Below, in pieces: positions 25,630-32,066 of a stretch of 64,000 nucleotides of DNA. Within the stretch, counting starts at the first letter, position 1. Every line of letters begins with the position of its first letter. The stretch is from Acidimicrobiales bacterium. Lineage in GTDB: Bacteria > Actinomycetota > Acidimicrobiia > Acidimicrobiales > GCA-2861595. The notes under the pieces are model-generated. The model was given only the letters and a program-made list of their open reading frames with translations, was not told the DNA's origin and searched no databases. The DNA is taken from contig DATLFN010000146.1 of the NCBI GenBank assembly GCA_035540975.1, positions 14,010 through 78,009 on the forward strand. Reading direction: 5' to 3'. The position numbers were made by a program, and so were the translations under genes.

Positions 25630-26442
25630 TCAGACCGGCCTGGCGCCCGACGCCACCTTGACGGCGACCGGGATCGCGTACCCGTCGCCGTCGGCGTAGC
25701 AGGCGACGAGGCGGTCGAACTCCGCCCGCACCCGCGTACGCACCTCCTCGGGTTGGCCGAGCACGGTCGCCCGGGTCCGCACCGTTCCCTCGAGCACGCC
25801 GTGCCACAGGTCGTCGGGGCTCGGCACCCGGTGCGCGAACGAGTGCGTGGCGACGGACACCTCGGTGAAGCCCGCCCCGGCCAGCAGCGCCGTGAACTCG
25901 GCGTCGTCGGAGAAGCGGAAGAACGGCGGGCCGTCGGGGACGCCAGGCGGCGGCGAGGCGCCGGCTGCGGACACGGCTTCGGCGAAGAGGCCCGGAAGGC
26001 GCCCACGCTCGGGGGAATCCCAGGCGGACAGCGCGGTGTGCCCACCCGGGACGACCACGCGGAACAACTCGCCCGCCGCGTCCTCCGGGCGGCCCAGGTG
26101 GAGGACGACGAAGTTGGCGACGGCGGCATCGAACGACCCGTCCGGGAAGGGGAGGTCGTGGGCGTCGGCCCGGCGGAACTCGACCGCGGGATGCGAGCGG
26201 CGGGCCAGGGCCAGCATCTGCTCGGCGAGATCGACGCCGACGACCGTGGCGCCGCGAGCGACGGCGGCACCGGCGACGACTCCCGGCCCGGAGCCCACGT
26301 CGAGCAGGCGATGGCCGGCACCGACCCGGGCGGCGTCGAGCAGGGCGCCGGCCACCTGCCCGGTGACCGGCGAGAAGAAGCGGTGGTACGCGTGCGCCCG
26401 CTCCTCCCACCCGGCCGCCTCGAAGGCGTCGAAGTCGCTCAC
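25630..26442 (-). CDS. Class I SAM-dependent methyltransferase
   Basis: Motif I LLDVGSGPGVVA, post-I VGVDLAEQML, motif II/III FDAAVANFVVLHL...VVVPGG. Confidence 0.85.
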   Translation of the reverse strand: MSDFDAFEAAGWEERAHAYHRFFSPVTGQVAGALLDAARVGAGHRLLDVGSGPGVVAGAAVARGATVVGVDLAEQMLALARRSHPAVEFRRADAHDLPFPDGSFDAAVANFVVLHLGRPEDAAGELFRVVVPGGHTALSAWDSPERGRLPGLFAEAVSAAGASPPPGVPDGPPFFRFSDDAEFTALLAGAGFTEVSVATHSFAHRVPSPDDLWHGVLEGTVRTRATVLGQPEEVRTRVRAEFDRLVACYADGDGYAIPVAVKVASGARPV

Positions 26443-26486
26443 CCGGGGAGTCTGGCACTCGCCTTCGTCGGTGGAAGAGTGGGCGC

Positions 26487-27068
26487 ATGGCGTTCCGGCG
26501 ACACGTGCGATCTGGGCGGTCCGTGGCCGGGCCGGTGGACGTCGGGGATCGCGCCCCGGAGATCGACCTGCCCGACTCCGTCGGCGACCGGTGGCGGTTG
26601 TCCGACCACCGGGGTGCCGCCGTGGTGCTGCTGTTCCACCGCCACCTCGCCTGACTCCCGTGCCAGGAGCACGCCGTCGCCGTGCGCGACCGGCTCGACG
26701 AGCTGGAGGGGGCGACCGTCGCCCTGGTCACGTTCACGCTCCAGCGCAACCTCCGGGGCTACCGTGGGCGCCTGGCCCTGCCGTACGTCGTCCTGGCCGA
26801 CGAACAGCGGGTGGCCTATCGCGCCTACGGGCTCGGCCGGGGGCCGTGGTGGCGCGTCTGGGGCCCGGCGACGTGGCGGGCCTACCTGCGGCTGCTCCGC
26901 CGGGGGCAGCGGGCGCGGCGCCCGGTGGAGGACACGCTGCAGCTCGGCGGCGACTTCGTGGTCGACGCCGAGGGGTGCGTCGCCTACGCCCACCGATCGA
27001 CGGGACCGGCCGACCGGCCGCCCGTCGACGTCCTCGTCGCCACCGTTCGGGCCCTTCGCCGGGATTGA
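26487..27068 (+). CDS. PRX_like2/AhpC-TSA thioredoxin-fold protein with in-frame TGA (26652-26654) at the redox-Cys position (candidate U-x-x-C selenoprotein, or pseudogene)
   Basis: ATG 26487 ...AAVVLLFHRHLA-TGA-LPCQEHAVAVRDRLDELEGATVALVTF...QLGGDFVVDAEGCVAYAH. A single fold spans the TGA. The track only lists the 3' part (26682-27068). Confidence 0.6.
26663..26693 (+). promoter_or_regulatory. Candidate bacterial SECIS-like hairpin downstream of the in-frame UGA
   Basis: Upper stem GCACG (26669-26673) / CGUGC (26681-26685), loop CCGUCGC. Lower stem CC(A)GG (26663-26667) / CCGG (26690-26693). The loop GU is 25-26 nt from the U of UGA. Confidence 0.35.
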
Positions 27069-27122: not shown

Positions 27123-27803
27123 GTGGCGGACACGCGGGAAACCCTCCAGTCCTCGATCGCGGGCGCGAACGCCCTGTCACGTTGGGCGCGGCGGATCGGC
27201 GCGGCGGCCGTGGCCGGCGTCGTGGGCGTCGCCCTGTACGGCCCGGCGCCGGTGCAGGCGCAGCTCCCCGAGCTGCTCCCGAGCTCGTCGAGCACCGCCC
27301 CGCCGTCGACGGCGTCGCCGGACTCGACACTGCTGCCGCCCCTCGAGCAGCTGGCCCCCCCGTCCACCGCACCCGGGACGGAGACGACGGCGCTGCTCCC
27401 CCTGCCCACCGCCGCCCCCGGCTCGCCCGGGCCGACCCTCCTGCCGGCGCCGAAGACGACCCGCACCACGACCTTCAACACGCTCCCGGTCCCGCCCCGC
27501 ACTCGGAGCCGGGTCACCACCACCACGCTCCAGCGCTCGATCGCCGCGTCGACGCCGCCAGTCGTCGAGGACGTGGAGGGTGGGGACCGGGAGGGCGGCT
27601 TCGAGGGGACCCTGCCGTTCACAGCCGAGGACGAGCAGATCCAGGCGGCCGGGCTGCACACCGAGCTCGGCGGCGGTGAGGGCGGCTCGCAGGACCCCGT
27701 CACGCTGATGGCGTCGATCGCGGCGGGGCTGATCGCCCTGGTGCTCCTCGGCGTCGTCGGCTGGCTCCAGGCCCAGGTCCGGGGACGCCCGCACCTCTGG
27801 TAG
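27123..27803 (+). CDS. Pro/Thr/Ser-rich membrane-anchored hypothetical protein
   Basis: GTG 27123. N-terminal signal/anchor RIGAAAVAGVVGVALYGPAPVQAQ. A P/S/T-rich low-complexity middle. C-terminal TM LMASIAAGLIALVLLGVVGWL plus a basic tail. Confidence 0.55.
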   Translation: MADTRETLQSSIAGANALSRWARRIGAAAVAGVVGVALYGPAPVQAQLPELLPSSSSTAPPSTASPDSTLLPPLEQLAPPSTAPGTETTALLPLPTAAPGSPGPTLLPAPKTTRTTTFNTLPVPPRTRSRVTTTTLQRSIAASTPPVVEDVEGGDREGGFEGTLPFTAEDEQIQAAGLHTELGGGEGGSQDPVTLMASIAAGLIALVLLGVVGWLQAQVRGRPHLW

Positions 27804-27849: not shown

Positions 27850-27922
27850 GGGCTCGTAGCTCAGTGGTCAGAGCAGGGGACTCATAATCCCTCGGTCGCT
27901 GGTTCGATCCCAGCCGGGCCCA
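27850..27922 (+). tRNA. tRNA-Met (anticodon CAT at 27883-27885), elongator type; CCA not encoded
   Basis: Acceptor GGGCTCG/CGGGCCC (one G-U pair). D-arm tagctcagtggtcagagc. Anticodon stem-loop GGGGA-CTCATAA-TCCCT. T-arm GCTGG-TTCGATC-CCAGC. Discriminator A. Confidence 0.9.
27878..27921 (+). repeat. attL-side direct repeat (3' 44 nt of tRNA-Met)
   Basis: ggactcataatccctcggtcgctggttcgatcccagccgggccc. Confidence 0.85.
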
Positions 27923-28001
27923 CCGGAAAACGCAGGTCAGGGCGCTATCCGGTGTTGCCGCTTCGGCCGAGCTACCCTCGAACCCAACAGCAGCCCAACA
28001 A

Positions 28002-29220
28002 GTGTTGGAGGGTGCGGTGGCCGGGAGCCTGCGGGAGAAGAGCCCGGGAGTGTGGGAGCTTCGGGTCTACCTGGGCCGCGATGCGGCCGGCAAGGTGCGA
28101 CACAAGCACGCCCGCTTCCGCGGCGGGAAACGCCAGGCCGAACGGGAGCTGGCCCGCCTGGTCGCCGAGTTGGACGCCGGCGACGGCGACATTCGTCCCG
28201 GACTGGGGGCCGGAGACGACGATCAACGACGCCGTCGTCGGCTGGCAGCGGAACGGGTGGGACGACCTCAGCCCGAGCACGGTCCGGCGGTACCGCAGCA
28301 TCTGGAAGGTCCACGTCAAGGACGACATCGGCCGCCGCAAGATCCGGGCGCTCGGCCCGTACGACGTGGAGTGCTACCTGCGAAAGCTCAAGCGGGCGGG
28401 CCAGAGCGAGTCGAGCGTCCACCAGATCCGTGCCATCCTCCACCGAGCCTGCCGCCTCGCCCGCAAGTGGAGCGGCAACCGCCTCCCGAACCCGGTGGCC
28501 GACACCGACCTGCCGGAGTGGGCGCTCCCGGAGAAGGCCGAGCATGTGCGGGCGCCGGAGCTCGGCGAGGTCCGGGCCGTGCTCGCCGCCGCTCGTGGCT
28601 ACGACCGGCGCGTGGCCGCCTTCATCCGCGTGGTCGCCGCCTCGGGAGCCCGACGTGGCGAAGTGTGCGCGCTGCGGTGGTCCGACGTCGACTGGGACCG
28701 GTTTTCGGTGCGGATCGACGAGGCCGTCGTCGCCGACGACGGTGGGGTCATTGTGAAGAGCCCTAAGAACCGGTCCAGCGTGCGGGTGGTGGCGCTCGAC
28801 GCGGCCACCCTTGACGAGCTGCGCGAGCTCAGGGACGAACGCGGCGTGGTGGCCGAGGCGTGCGGAGTGGAGGTGGTGGCCGAGGGCTTCGTCTTCTCCA
28901 CTGAGCCCTCGGGCGAGGCCCCTCCCAACCCCGACAGCTTCACCCATGCGTTCACCCGTTGCCGCGACCTGGCCGGCGTCGCCTCGGACGTTCACCTCCA
29001 CTCGCTCCGTCACTTCCAGTCGACCAGGCTCGACACGGTCATCTCCGAGGCCCAGAAGCAGGCGCGGATGGGTTGGGCCAGCGTGCACATGTCCCGCCAC
29101 TACACCGATGCCATCACCGAGGAGGACCGCCGAGCCGCCGAGCACATCGGCGAGGCGCTGGGTGAGTCAGCGGACGGTGGTGAACCGCTCCGGCGCTCGG
29201 CGGTCCGCTTCCGGCCGTAG
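28002..29220 (+). pseudogene. Tyrosine recombinase/phage integrase, frameshifted near 28175-28200
   Basis: The N-terminal arm-type domain reads in the frame of 28002 (AGSLREKSPGVWELRVYLGRDAAGKVRHKHARFRGGKRQAERELARLVAELDAGDGD). The remainder reads in the frame of 27952 (FVPDWGPETTINDAVVGWQ...ASGARRGEVCALRWSDVD...HLHSLRHFQST...MGWASVHMSRHY: R, HxxR and Y catalytic blocks). Confidence 0.8.
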
Positions 29221-30893: not shown

Positions 30894-32066
30894 GTGAGTG
30901 CACCACGGGTGGCCCTGGCCCATGACTTCCTCACCCAGCGCGGGGGAGCCGAGCGGGTGTTCCTGGCCATGGCCCGTGCCTTCCCGGAGAGCCCCATCCT
31001 GACCACGCTGTACGAGCCGTCGGCCACCTACCCCGAGTTCGCCGACCACGAGGTGCGCACCAGCCCGCTCCAGCGGGTGCGCCCCCTCCGGCGCCACTTC
31101 CGGGCCGGCCTGCCGCTGTACCCGTGGGCGGTGCGCCGGCTGGGCCCTGTGGACGCCGACGTGTTGGTGTCGTCGAGCACCTCGTTCGCCCACGGGATGC
31201 GCTCCCAGGGCTGTCACATCGGGTACCTCTACAGCCCACCCCACTGGCTGTGGGACACGGCCCGCTACGTCGGCGCGTCCAGATCGGCCGTCCTCGCCAA
31301 GCGTCTGCTCGGGCGCATGCGGACACTCGACCTGGCGGCGGCCGCCACCCCGCACCTGTTCGTCACCTGTTCGGCCAACGCCGCGGGCAAGATCTACGAC
31401 ACCTACGGCCGCTGGGCCGAGGTGCTGCCCCCGCCGGTTCGCCGGCGGCCGGCGGTGGCCGAACAGGGCGACTTCTTCCTCGTCGTGTCCCGGCTGCTCC
31501 CTTCCAAGGGCATCGACGCGGCTATCGGGGCCGCCGGGCTGCTCGGGGCCCGGCTGGTGGTCGTCGGCCGGGGGCCCGACAGTGGGCGGCTGCACGCGCT
31601 GGCCGGGTCGGGCGTCGAGTTCCGGGAGCGGGTCGTCGACGCCGAGCTCGACGACCTGTACGCCCGTTGCGTAGCCCTGGTCATGCCGGGCGACGAGGAC
31701 CTTGGCCTGGTGCCCATCGAGGCCAACTCGGCCGGCCGGCCGGCCGTCTGCCTGGCCCGCGGCGGCGCCCTCGAGACCGTGGTCCCGGGCGAGACGGGCC
31801 TGTTGGTGGACACCGCCGACGCCGGCACCCTGGCCGAGGCCCTGGCCGCTGCCGCCGGGCGGGCGTGGGACGCCGACGCCCTGCAGCGCCACGCCGACGG
31901 CTGGTCCGAGGAGGCCTTCGCTCGGAAGCTCCGCCTGCTCGTGGAGCACTTTCCGGGCTGGTGCCGCCGCTGCGGCGGCGAGGGGCTCGGGCCCTACCCC
32001 ATGCAGGCCGTCCTCGACCGCTATGGCGACGCGGCCGGCGCCCAAGAGACGGCGGAGGCACATTGA
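30894..32066 (+). CDS. Glycosyltransferase family 4 (GT-B)
   Basis: GTG 30894. RVALAHDFLTQRGGAERV...FFLVVSRLLPSKGID...EDLGLVPIEANSAGRPAV...GGALETVVPGETG (E-x7-E type block). Confidence 0.85.
   Translation: MSAPRVALAHDFLTQRGGAERVFLAMARAFPESPILTTLYEPSATYPEFADHEVRTSPLQRVRPLRRHFRAGLPLYPWAVRRLGPVDADVLVSSSTSFAHGMRSQGCHIGYLYSPPHWLWDTARYVGASRSAVLAKRLLGRMRTLDLAAAATPHLFVTCSANAAGKIYDTYGRWAEVLPPPVRRRPAVAEQGDFFLVVSRLLPSKGIDAAIGAAGLLGARLVVVGRGPDSGRLHALAGSGVEFRERVVDAELDDLYARCVALVMPGDEDLGLVPIEANSAGRPAVCLARGGALETVVPGETGLLVDTADAGTLAEALAAAAGRAWDADALQRHADGWSEEAFARKLRLLVEHFPGWCRRCGGEGLGPYPMQAVLDRYGDAAGAQETAEAH

What the first reader, a model, noticed from the sequence alone, without database searches (positions are those of the whole stretch)
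26487..27068. In-frame TGA at the redox cysteine of a thioredoxin-fold (PRX_like2) gene: candidate U-x-x-C selenoprotein
From ATG 26487 the frame reads ...GDRAPEIDLPDSVGDRWRLSDHRGAAVVLLFHRHLA. Then comes TGA (26652-26654), and the same frame continues LPCQEHAVAVRDRLDELEGATVALVTF...QLGGDFVVDAEGCVAYAH to the stop at 27066-27068.

Neither half is a domain on its own. Together they form one AhpC/TSA PRX_like2-type fold: a beta strand VVLLF, the redox motif, a helix, the strand VALVTF, and a C-terminal GG.FVVD block.

The TGA replaces the first Cys of the family's W-C-x-x-C, giving U-L-P-C. Seventeen nt from the U of the UGA a hairpin starts (GCACG-CCGUCGC-CGUGC at 26669-26685, extendable by CCAGG/CCGG). 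Its loop GU lies 25-26 nt from the UGA, close to the spacing I recall for E. coli fdhF SECIS (G23/U24).

Selenocysteine use is uncommon in high-GC actinobacteria, so a Sec-containing peroxiredoxin-like protein here would be notable.
Basis: partly seen in the sequence, partly recalled or inferred. Interest (0 to 1): 0.8.

Follow-up and report, generated by a model that had tools for sequence, protein, structure and literature searches.

The report
Selenocysteine gene of SelL-related redox family
The "stop" codon inside this small thioredoxin-fold gene almost certainly encodes selenocysteine, but the gene belongs to an already curated family (SelL-related / Prx-like UxxC selenoproteins), so it is a routine gene-calling error rather than a new discovery.

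Summary
ATG 26487 to stop 27068 is one AhpC/TSA thioredoxin-fold gene, interrupted only by TGA 26652-26654 at the first position of a U-L-P-C redox motif.

The selenoprotein reading is strongly supported by comparison:
- About 145 of 153 homologous loci from Acidimicrobiia, Thermoleophilia, Nitriliruptoria, Chloroflexota and others carry TGA (never TAA or TAG) at this column. The remaining 8 carry Cys.
- Both halves are under purifying selection.
- Six other independent assemblies of the same species carry the same TGA.
- A downstream hairpin shows compensatory and synonymous-site covariation in three clades.

The supported SECIS is 26673-26694: an 8-bp stem with one bulged C and loop CGUGC.

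The protein passes NCBIfam NF040769 "SelL-related redox protein". It also fits the published "Prx-like thiol:disulfide oxidoreductase, UxxC/UxxU" selenoprotein family, so this is a new member of a known kind.

The main gap is Sec machinery. There is no selA, selB, selD or tRNA-Sec in the 64-kb window, and the rest of the genome could not be reached. One relative (L084) has selD-selB directly downstream of its copy. Substrate and reductant are unknown.

The parts
26487..27068 (+). Complete gene for a SelL-related (Prx-like, UxxC) thioredoxin-fold selenoprotein: 193 codons including Sec56, about 21 kDa. Public gene calls split it into a 55-aa ORF (26487-26654) and a 128-aa ORF (26682-27068).
   Evidence: Translation. 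Pfam AhpC-TSA residues 19-167. NCBIfam NF040769 145.4 bits against a cut-off of 120, residues 22-186. Split gene calls. Invariant residues on both sides of the TGA. dN/dS below 1 on both sides.
26473..26479 (+). Possible Shine-Dalgarno-like GGAAGAG, 7 nt upstream of ATG 26487. Seen by eye only and weak.
   Evidence: Sequence. The JGI gene caller also starts the 55-aa ORF at this ATG. Homologues begin about 10-16 residues further in, so the exact start is not certain.
26652..26654 (+). UGA read as selenocysteine (U56), first position of the U-L-P-C redox motif.
   Evidence: TGA at this column in 75/80 genome loci and 70/73 metagenome loci, never TAA or TAG, with Cys (TGC/TGT) in the rest. Cys-form proteins P0002-P0009 have CLPC here. 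In the AF2 model of the Cys form this residue caps the N-terminus of helix 1.
26661..26663 (+). TGC encoding Cys59, the second (resolving) residue of the UxxC motif. It aligns with the peroxidatic Cys of peroxiredoxins.
   Evidence: Conserved as TGC/TGT in nearly all loci, and TGA (UxxU) in 5 Chloroflexota-type loci. In the alignment to Prx 2ywn, Prx Cys aligns with C59 and Prx Thr with U56.
26673..26694 (+). Bacterial SECIS hairpin inside the coding sequence. 5' arm GCCGUCGC (26673-26680), apical loop CGUGC (26681-26685, G at 26682 and U at 26683), 3' arm GCGAC-(C bulge)-GGC (26686-26694). There are 26 nt between the UGA and the loop.
   Evidence: Local MFE -12.5 kcal/mol. Meets all four published bSECIS criteria (criteria from PMC13188914). 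The 8-bp stem has 86% of cells paired, 20 double-sided changes against 8.1 expected, and 0/500 shuffles reach it. Synonymous-codon resampling gives 7.37 against 5.96+-0.11 pairs, and Ala/Arg third-position covariation has Fisher p=1.4e-8.

Best explanation
This is one intact gene (26487-27068) for a selenocysteine-containing thiol/selenol oxidoreductase of the SelL-related (Prx-like UxxC) family.

Decoding (inferred from comparison and from the established bacterial Sec pathway). The ribosome reaches UGA 26652. The mRNA hairpin 26673-26694, with apical loop CGUGC 26 nt downstream, recruits SelB-GTP-Sec-tRNA(Sec). Sec is inserted instead of termination, and translation continues to 27068.

Chemistry (inferred from fold and motif position). 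Sec56 sits at the N-terminal cap of helix 1 of a thioredoxin fold, the position of the attacking Cys in CxxC oxidoreductases. It attacks an oxidised substrate (a disulfide, sulfenic acid or peroxide; which one is unknown). It is then resolved by Cys59 into an intramolecular selenenylsulfide, which an external reductant recycles.

Possible reductant (a lead only). In about 14 related loci from all three clades, a flavoprotein pyridine-nucleotide disulfide reductase is encoded next door.
For: - Domain integrity across the TGA.
- Passes the curated NCBIfam family cut-off.
- TGA and only TGA at this column in about 145/153 loci across several phyla, with Cys in the other 8.
- Cys homologues read CLPC.
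- Residues are at least 90% conserved on both sides of the TGA: F50, R52, H53, then L57, C59, H62... QLGGDFVV ... DRP.
- dN/dS is 0.12-0.67 upstream and 0.08-0.52 downstream.
- The same TGA is present in 6 other independent assemblies.
- Hairpins covary in three clades, each with its own spacing of 26, 20 and 25 nt.
- Stem-forming synonymous codons are strongly preferred: Val GTC 52 against GTG 0, and Arg CGC 43 against CGG 0, although the genome uses each pair about 1:1. The family mean is 7.37/8 pairs against 5.96+-0.11 with the protein held fixed.
- The window hairpin meets the published bSECIS criteria (PMC13188914).
- L084 has selD and selB immediately downstream of its family member.
- Sec machinery is reported in all 84 complete Actinomarina (class Acidimicrobiia) genomes.
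- The AF2 model (pLDDT 85.6) places the Sec-equivalent Cys at the helix-1 N-cap. The nearest folds are BCP/PrxQ/AhpE and ResA.
Against: - No selA, selB, selD or tRNA-Sec lies in the 64-kb window, and the rest of this genome could not be searched.
- SelA and SelB searches returned many Actinomycetota hits, but none named Acidimicrobiales.
- For the window sequence alone the hairpin is not statistically unusual: z = 0.07 and -0.45, 8/8 pairs has P=0.13 given the peptide, and 29% of background codons pass the bSECIS criteria.
- Some Cys-form relatives (L096, L156) keep the full stem, so the stem is not exclusive to Sec forms.
- There is no Rfam SECIS hit.
- Substrate, reductant and actual Se incorporation are untested.
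Confidence: 0.87

Rival explanations
1. Plain pseudogene. A nonsense mutation (TGC/TGT to TGA) inactivated a Cys-type PRX_like2 gene in this lineage.
For: A single base change converts TGC to TGA. Gene callers treat the locus as two fragments. No Sec machinery is seen in the window.
Against: The same TGA is found in about 145/153 loci from several phyla and is never TAA or TAG. dN/dS is below 1 on both sides. There are no further stops or frameshifts in the window gene. Residues up- and downstream are invariant. The downstream hairpin is under selection at synonymous sites.
Confidence: 0.02
2. UGA terminates here and the locus makes two products, a 55-aa peptide and a 128-aa C-terminal protein started at GTG 26682, as currently annotated in public databases.
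For: Public annotation calls exactly these ORFs. The 128-aa piece alone hits Pfam AhpC-TSA_2.
Against: Neither piece holds a complete thioredoxin fold, and the redox motif straddles the split. GTG 26682 lies inside the conserved hairpin loop. The called starts in homologues vary, giving products of 118-133 aa, so they are not a conserved initiation site. The 55-aa part is conserved as part of the domain, with F50, R52 and H53 at 97-100%.
Confidence: 0.03
3. UGA is read through, but not as Sec. The alternative is near-cognate insertion of Cys or Trp, for instance if this particular genome has lost the Sec machinery while keeping the gene.
For: Sec machinery could not be shown for this genome or for its order. 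Sec-to-Cys switches do occur in the family, with 8 Cys forms, some still carrying the hairpin.
Against: TGA is the common ordinary stop codon of the window's genes, so there is no code reassignment. The SelB-type hairpin is maintained by selection at synonymous sites in the window's own clade, and the window has a perfect 8/8 stem. A lineage without SelB would be expected to fix TGC, as the Cys forms did.
Confidence: 0.06
4. Sequencing or assembly error at 26652-26654.
For: None beyond the general possibility.
Against: The TGA is identical in six other independent assemblies from different samples, which differ from the window gene by only one synonymous SNP.
Confidence: 0.005

Closest known systems
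NCBIfam NF040769 'SelL-related redox protein' (SelL_rel_redox)
   Same: The window protein scores 145.4 bits against the curated cut-off of 120 over residues 22-186 of a 173-position model. It has the same thioredoxin/AhpC-TSA fold and the same U/C-x-x-C redox motif.
   Different: Nothing found that sets it apart. The window copy is simply a Sec-form member from a high-GC, probably Acidimicrobiales, metagenome contig. It is mis-called in public data as two ORFs.
'Prx-like protein' / 'Prx-like thiol:disulfide oxidoreductase' bacterial selenoproteins (pfam00578; UxxC, UxxU)
   Same: A distant Prx homologue whose active site is a thioredoxin-like UxxC instead of the TxxU of Sec-peroxiredoxins. 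That is how PMC1088965 describes the family, and the alignment shows the same thing. UxxU variants also occur here (L054, L059, L154, L158). These families are listed in PMC2398784, PMC9312934 and PMC13188914.
   Different: I could not align the published exemplars (e.g. WP_010940744.1), so identity with a specific published subfamily (Prx-like 1, 2 or 3, or the 'ULPU-containing selenoprotein' of PMC5029168) is not shown. The published sets were mostly marine or deltaproteobacterial. The loci here are mostly Actinomycetota and Chloroflexota MAGs.
Eukaryotic/marine SelL (UxxU diselenide selenoprotein; Shchedrina et al. 2007 PNAS, cited in PMC2397514 and PMC2398784; the paper itself is not held)
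   Same: A Prx-like thioredoxin fold with the selenium redox pair at the CxxC position. The NCBIfam name ties the two together.
   Different: The window protein has one Sec (U-L-P-C), so it would form a selenenylsulfide rather than a diselenide. Its SECIS is an in-frame bacterial hairpin, not a 3'-UTR element.
BCP/PrxQ and AhpE peroxiredoxins; ResA/TlpA thiol-disulfide oxidoreductases
   Same: These are the best structural matches (TM 0.65-0.78, E about 1e-14 to 1e-10) and the best PDB sequence matches (2ywn, E=1.5e-7).
   Different: Identity is only 16-23%. The Prx P-x-x-x-T-x-x-C motif is replaced by R-H-x-x-U-x-x-C. The NCBIfam BCP, PrxQ and ResA models score far below their cut-offs: 32.9 against 140, 18.4 against 260, and 22.2 against 170.

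Membership tests
NCBIfam NF040769 SelL-related redox protein | Whole-protein HMM score at or above the curated cut-off (120 bits) | tested here: met
   145.4 bits, E=1.3e-42, residues 22-186 against model positions 2-172 of 173 (the stop was replaced by C for scoring).
NCBIfam NF040769 SelL-related redox protein | Thioredoxin / AhpC-TSA fold with a U/C-x-x-C(U) motif at the N-terminus of helix 1 | tested here: met
   Pfam AhpC-TSA, AhpC-TSA_2 and Redoxin all above gathering scores. In the AF2 model of the 67%-identical Cys form (pLDDT 85.6), Cys42 (equivalent to U56) precedes helix 43-54.
Bacterial selenoprotein gene (SelB/SECIS-dependent UGA recoding) | In-frame UGA aligned with Cys in homologues and conserved as UGA in orthologues | tested here: met
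   75/80 and 70/73 loci have TGA, 8 have Cys, and none has TAA or TAG. Cys forms read CLPC.
Bacterial selenoprotein gene (SelB/SECIS-dependent UGA recoding) | bSECIS hairpin: 3-9 nt loop, 4-16 bp stem, G in the first two loop positions, 16-37 nt from the UGA, MFE at or below -7.5 kcal/mol (PMC13188914) | tested here: met
   Loop CGUGC (5 nt, G second, then U), 8-bp stem with a 1-nt bulge, spacing 26 nt, -11.1 to -12.5 kcal/mol. Covariation supports it. Caveat: 29% of background codons in this window also pass.
Bacterial selenoprotein gene (SelB/SECIS-dependent UGA recoding) | selA, selB, selC (tRNA-Sec) and selD present in the same genome | not testable with these tools
Indirect support: selD-selB adjacent to the family member in L084, and Sec machinery in Actinomarina of class Acidimicrobiia.
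Bacterial selenoprotein gene (SelB/SECIS-dependent UGA recoding) | Selenium actually incorporated at the UGA position | not testable with these tools
   Needs 75Se labelling or mass spectrometry.
Peroxiredoxin (BCP/PrxQ type) | P-x-x-x-T-x-x-C active-site motif and family-level HMM score | tested here: not met
   In the alignment to 2ywn, Prx Pro is replaced by R52 and Prx Thr by U56; only the Cys (C59) is shared. NCBIfam thiol peroxidase scores 32.9 against 140, and PrxQ 18.4 against 260.
Peroxiredoxin (BCP/PrxQ type) | Conserved catalytic Arg near the ...F-[VI]-[VI]-D strand | tested here: inconclusive
   The family has the invariant Q-L-G-G-D-F-V-V there, which suggests Gly at the Arg position. 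The printed PDB alignment does not cover that residue, so the placement rests on my recollection of BCP sequences.
SelL proper (UxxU diselenide selenoprotein) | Two Sec residues in a U-x-x-U motif | tested here: not met
   The window has TGA...TGC (U-L-P-C). UxxU occurs only in 5 Chloroflexota-type relatives.

The most novel reading that the evidence does not exclude
Two linked claims.
1. Sec-form SelL-related proteins are the near-universal form (over 90%) of this enzyme across soil and sediment Acidimicrobiia, Thermoleophilia and Nitriliruptoria. That would imply a broad Sec-decoding trait in high-GC Actinomycetota classes that is hidden by split gene calls.
2. They work as a dedicated two-component system with the flavoprotein disulfide reductase encoded next to them in about 14 loci from all three clades.
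Probability: 0.2. Interest if true: 0.5.

Novelty: new member of a known kind. Interest (0 to 1): 0.3.

Why it matters
Mainly as an annotation correction. The gene should be one 193-codon selenoprotein, not a 55-aa plus a 128-aa hypothetical protein. About 105 of the 120 best database hits show the same truncation, so the error is systematic in public metagenome and MAG annotation.

It also marks this organism, probably an Acidimicrobiales bacterium, as a likely Sec user.

The family offers a clean natural experiment. Three different in-frame SECIS solutions are laid over one conserved protein, there are Sec/Cys and UxxC/UxxU switches, and a candidate partner reductase is encoded nearby. None of this overturns current knowledge of selenoproteins.

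Tried and rejected
1. Replaced by 26673-26694.
2. Single-sequence folding as evidence: z-scores are about 0, and 29% of background codons pass the bSECIS criteria in this GC-rich DNA. I therefore relied on comparative tests.
3. Rfam: no SECIS or tRNA-Sec hit in the window, and only chance-level hits near the site.
4. Sec machinery:
 - E. coli and actinobacterial SelA/SelB/SelD tblastn against the window and about 165 loci found only L084.
 - ARAGORN found no tRNA-Sec in any held sequence.
 - The weak SelB-like hit in L041 is TypA/BipA.
5. SelB and SelA database searches and cluster names, used to place Sec machinery in Acidimicrobiales: the named hits were Nitriliruptoria, Egicoccus or generic Actinobacteria. 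The selA-selB operon contigs L170-L172 could not be tied to MAGs that hold the family.
6. Other selenoprotein candidates in the window: the only other TGAs with coding signal on both sides are gene junctions.
7. Conserved operon partner: no neighbour is shared by more than about 17 of about 150 loci, and the window's own neighbours (a SAM methyltransferase and an unknown 226-aa ORF) are not among the recurrent ones.
8. The literature search for 'ULPU' was uninformative, and the SelL paper PMC1955791 is not held.
9. A contiguous-stem-only bSECIS scan missed the window's bulged stem. I redid it with one bulge allowed.

Full report
**1. Observation**

The frame from ATG 26487 reads through 55 sense codons to TGA 26652-26654 and continues without further stops to TGA 27066-27068. 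With Cys in place of the stop, Pfam AhpC-TSA matches residues 19-167 (E=2.7e-16). AhpC-TSA_2 and Redoxin also score above their gathering thresholds, so one domain spans the TGA.

The motif is U56-L-P-C59.

In the 64-kb window this is the only TGA with strong coding-type GC3 on both sides inside a single domain. The two other candidates are junctions between adjacent genes.

The window is 72% GC and uses TGA as its commonest ordinary stop, so there is no sign of a reassigned genetic code.

**2. Not an error and not a pseudogene**

The 128-aa C-terminal fragment occurs on 15-16 JGI metagenome contigs. Six of them (L001-L006, from different samples) carry the identical gene with the same TGA and differ by one synonymous SNP at 26765.

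A scan of one genome per species returned 80 loci, and the tblastn matches run straight across the TGA position. At the aligned column 75 have TGA and 5 have TGC; none has TAA or TAG. The metagenome scan gave 70 TGA and 3 Cys among the 73 loci that could be placed. After removing duplicates there are 124 distinct Sec-form and 8 distinct Cys-form segments.

The taxa named in the records are mostly Acidimicrobiia/Acidimicrobiales. Others are Thermoleophilia/Gaiellales, Nitriliruptoria, Chloroflexota, Ca. Dormibacterota, Gemmatimonadota and Planctomycetota.

Full-length database homologues (P0002-P0009 and others) are Cys forms reading HRHLA-C-LPC. About 105 of the 120 best protein hits are 118-133-aa C-terminal fragments, meaning gene callers stopped at the same TGA.

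Residues at least 90% conserved across about 124 distinct members lie on both sides of the Sec codon: A23, P24, G33, G43, F50, R52, H53 | U56, L57, C59, H62, D105, R108, Y111, R118, Y133, D149, Q152-LGGDFVV, D176-R-P.

Pairwise dN/dS against 15 close relatives is 0.12-0.67 for the 33 codons upstream and 0.08-0.52 for 40 codons downstream.

**3. The SECIS element**

I numbered positions from the U of the UGA as 1 and tested candidate stems on ungapped clade alignments.

*Acidimicrobiia-type clade (74 sequences, including the window)*
123 of 500 shuffles reach its score, and its outer pair is broken in 44 of 74 sequences.
- The 8-bp stem 22-29 / 35-42 around loop CGUGC has 86% of cells paired. 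It has 20 double-sided changes against 8.1+-2.3 expected, and 0 of 500 shuffles reach its covariation score.
- The lower three pairs use either a continuous or a one-bulge register. The window uses the bulged one.

*Control for the conserved H-A-V-A-V-R-D-R peptide*
- I resampled synonymous codons with the protein fixed. The family mean is 7.37 of 8 pairs against 5.96+-0.11 (maximum 6.23 in 300 runs).
- Against column-wise synonymous permutation the expectation is 7.06+-0.05.
- Val at 25-27 is GTC 52 times and GTG never. Arg at 34-36 is CGC 43 times and CGG never. The window's genes use each of those pairs about 1:1.
- Ala GCG pairs with Arg CGC/CGT 27 times and Ala GCC with CGG 16 times, with only 4 discordant cases (Fisher p=1.4e-8).

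*Other clades*
- Thermoleophilia/Nitriliruptoria type (32 sequences): stem 16-23 / 29-36, loop CGUGA, 0/500 shuffles.
- Chloroflexota type (14 sequences): a 7-bp stem with loop AGUU, 93% paired, 15 double-sided changes against 4.6 expected, 0/500 shuffles.

*Against the published bSECIS model.* The criteria are a 3-9 nt loop, a 4-16 bp stem, G in the first two loop positions, 16-37 nt spacing, and MFE at or below -7.5 kcal/mol (PMC13188914). The window hairpin passes: 26673-26694, loop 5 nt, G second then U, spacing 26 nt, -11.1 to -12.5 kcal/mol. The family passes in 57/74, 30/33 and 16/17 sequences, with clade-constant spacing of 26, 20 and 25 nt.

*Caveats*
- For the window alone the hairpin is not unusual. 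The z-scores are 0.07 and -0.45, and 8/8 pairs has P=0.13 given the peptide.
- 29% of in-frame codons in the window's other genes also pass the criteria. The weight therefore lies in the comparative evidence.
- Cys forms L096 and L156 keep a full stem, which looks like recent Sec-to-Cys conversion, whereas L048 and L049 have lost it.

**4. Sec machinery**

The window holds only tRNA-Met (27850-27924). It has no tRNA-Sec and no selA, selB or selD. No held flank has tRNA-Sec.

One relative gives a direct physical link. In L084 (a Nitriliruptoraceae MAG) the family member at 180-713 is followed by selD (900-1844, SHGAGCACK motif) and then selB (from about 1890, ATAGHVDHGKS).

SelB and SelA are abundant in Actinomycetota metagenome data, in selA-selB operons next to WhiB. 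None of the named hits is Acidimicrobiales, and I could not tie those contigs to genomes that hold the family. The weak hit in L041 is TypA/BipA.

A 2026 preprint reports selA, selB, selC and selD in all 84 complete Actinomarina genomes (class Acidimicrobiia).

This is the main reason my confidence is not higher.

**5. What the protein is and how it probably works**

NCBIfam NF040769 "SelL-related redox protein" is passed at 145.4 bits against a cut-off of 120. The peroxiredoxin and ResA models fall far below their cut-offs.

The best PDB sequence match is the archaeal BCP-type Prx 2ywn (E=1.5e-7). In that alignment the Prx peroxidatic Cys aligns with C59, the Prx Thr with U56 and the Prx Pro with R52. 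The centre is therefore a thioredoxin-style U-x-x-C, not a Prx T-x-x-C. This matches how the "Prx-like protein" selenoprotein family is described in PMC1088965.

An AF2 model of the 67%-identical Cys form (pLDDT 85.6) has the Sec-equivalent residue at the N-cap of helix 1, right after strand 32-37. The nearest solved folds are BCP/PrxQ/AhpE and ResA-type oxidoreductases at no more than 23% identity.

From established CxxC chemistry I infer that Sec56 is the attacking nucleophile, Cys59 resolves it to a selenenylsulfide, and an external reductant recycles it. The substrate is unknown.

No neighbour is conserved family-wide. Recurring neighbours are:
- a flavoprotein pyridine-nucleotide disulfide reductase (Pyr_redox_2 plus dimerisation domain, CxxxxC), adjacent and co-directional in about 14 loci from all three clades;
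- DUF3179 in about 17 loci;
- an MBL-rhodanese fusion in about 9 loci.

These are leads, not evidence for the window copy. Its own neighbours are a SAM methyltransferase (25630-26442, minus strand) and an unannotatable 226-aa ORF (27123-27803).

**6. Comparison with what is known, and verdict**

Prx-like UxxC/UxxU selenoproteins have been listed since the Sargasso Sea and GOS selenoproteome papers and in recent reviews (PMC1088965, PMC2398784, PMC9312934, PMC13188914). SelL is described as a Prx-like UxxU selenoprotein (PMC2397514, PMC2398784). I could not read the original paper.

The window gene is a Sec-form member of this curated family, so it is a new member of a known kind.

Its hairpin register is wrong, and its novelty argument is weaker than stated.

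Remaining value:
- correcting a systematic split-gene annotation;
- flagging the organism as a probable Sec user;
- modest leads: clade-specific SECIS solutions, UxxU variants and a candidate partner reductase.

Interest 0.3.

Noticed in passing
L054, L059, L154, L158 (Chloroflexota-type loci; the Sec column and +9 nt): These relatives have TGA at both redox positions (U-L-P-U, U-L-Y-U, U-L-F-U), followed by a single AGUU-loop hairpin. This is the diselenide-type motif known from SelL. One further metagenome locus does the same.
   Followed up: partly
L084:180-3713: In a Nitriliruptoraceae MAG the SelL-related selenoprotein gene is followed directly by selD (900-1844) and selB (from about 1890). 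It is the only locus of about 165 with Sec machinery next to the family.
   Followed up: yes
L016, L113, L070, L072, L073, L080, L083 and about 7 more loci, within 2 kb of the family gene: A flavoprotein pyridine-nucleotide disulfide oxidoreductase (Pyr_redox_2 plus dimerisation domain, GGxCxxxGCxPSK) lies adjacent and mostly co-directional in all three clades. It is a candidate reductase partner. It is not present next to the window copy.
   Followed up: partly
L051, L061, L145, L146, L148 and others (about 17 loci): A DUF3179 protein with a T-F/Y-C-P-L-C motif is a recurrent neighbour. DUF3179 is itself listed as a selenoprotein family in PMC9312934. An MBL-fold plus rhodanese fusion recurs in about 9 loci.
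   Followed up: no
window 27850-29220 (and on to about 30500): tRNA-Met (27850-27924) lies about 780 nt downstream of the selenoprotein gene and is followed by a tyrosine integrase (27952-29220) and, in L001, an HTH_17 excisionase-like gene. This is probably an integrated element at the tRNA. An exopolysaccharide cluster follows (glycosyltransferases, Wzy_C, a ParA/CbiA-type protein, Bac_transf, DUF4012; about 30.8-53.3 kb).
   Followed up: no
window 31445-31529 against L001 7829-7837: The otherwise 99.9%-identical contig L001 lacks about 84 bp that are present in the window here, an indel polymorphism between populations.
   Followed up: no
L076:2586-2669 and L143:402-485: L076 has a 9-nt tandem duplication (RAH-RAH) between the UGA and the hairpin. 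It moves the loop 9 nt further away but still within the 16-37 nt range. L143 has a 1-nt insertion just after the UxxC motif, which is either a frameshift or a sequencing error.
   Followed up: no
L096, L156 compared with L048, L049 (Cys-form loci): Some Cys forms keep a perfect 8/8 SECIS stem while others have lost it. This suggests Sec-to-Cys conversions of different ages.
   Followed up: partly
window 27123-27803 (+): A 226-aa ORF with strong coding GC3 immediately downstream of the selenoprotein gene has no Pfam hit. It is conserved in the same-species contigs.
   Followed up: no
window 26487-26654 and 26682-27068; database hits P0001, P0005, P0007, P0010-P0120: Public gene calls split this gene into 55-aa and 128-aa ORFs. 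About 105 of the 120 best database hits are equivalent C-terminal fragments named 'hypothetical protein', 'peroxiredoxin' or 'AhpC/TSA family protein'. The family is systematically mis-annotated.
   Followed up: yes
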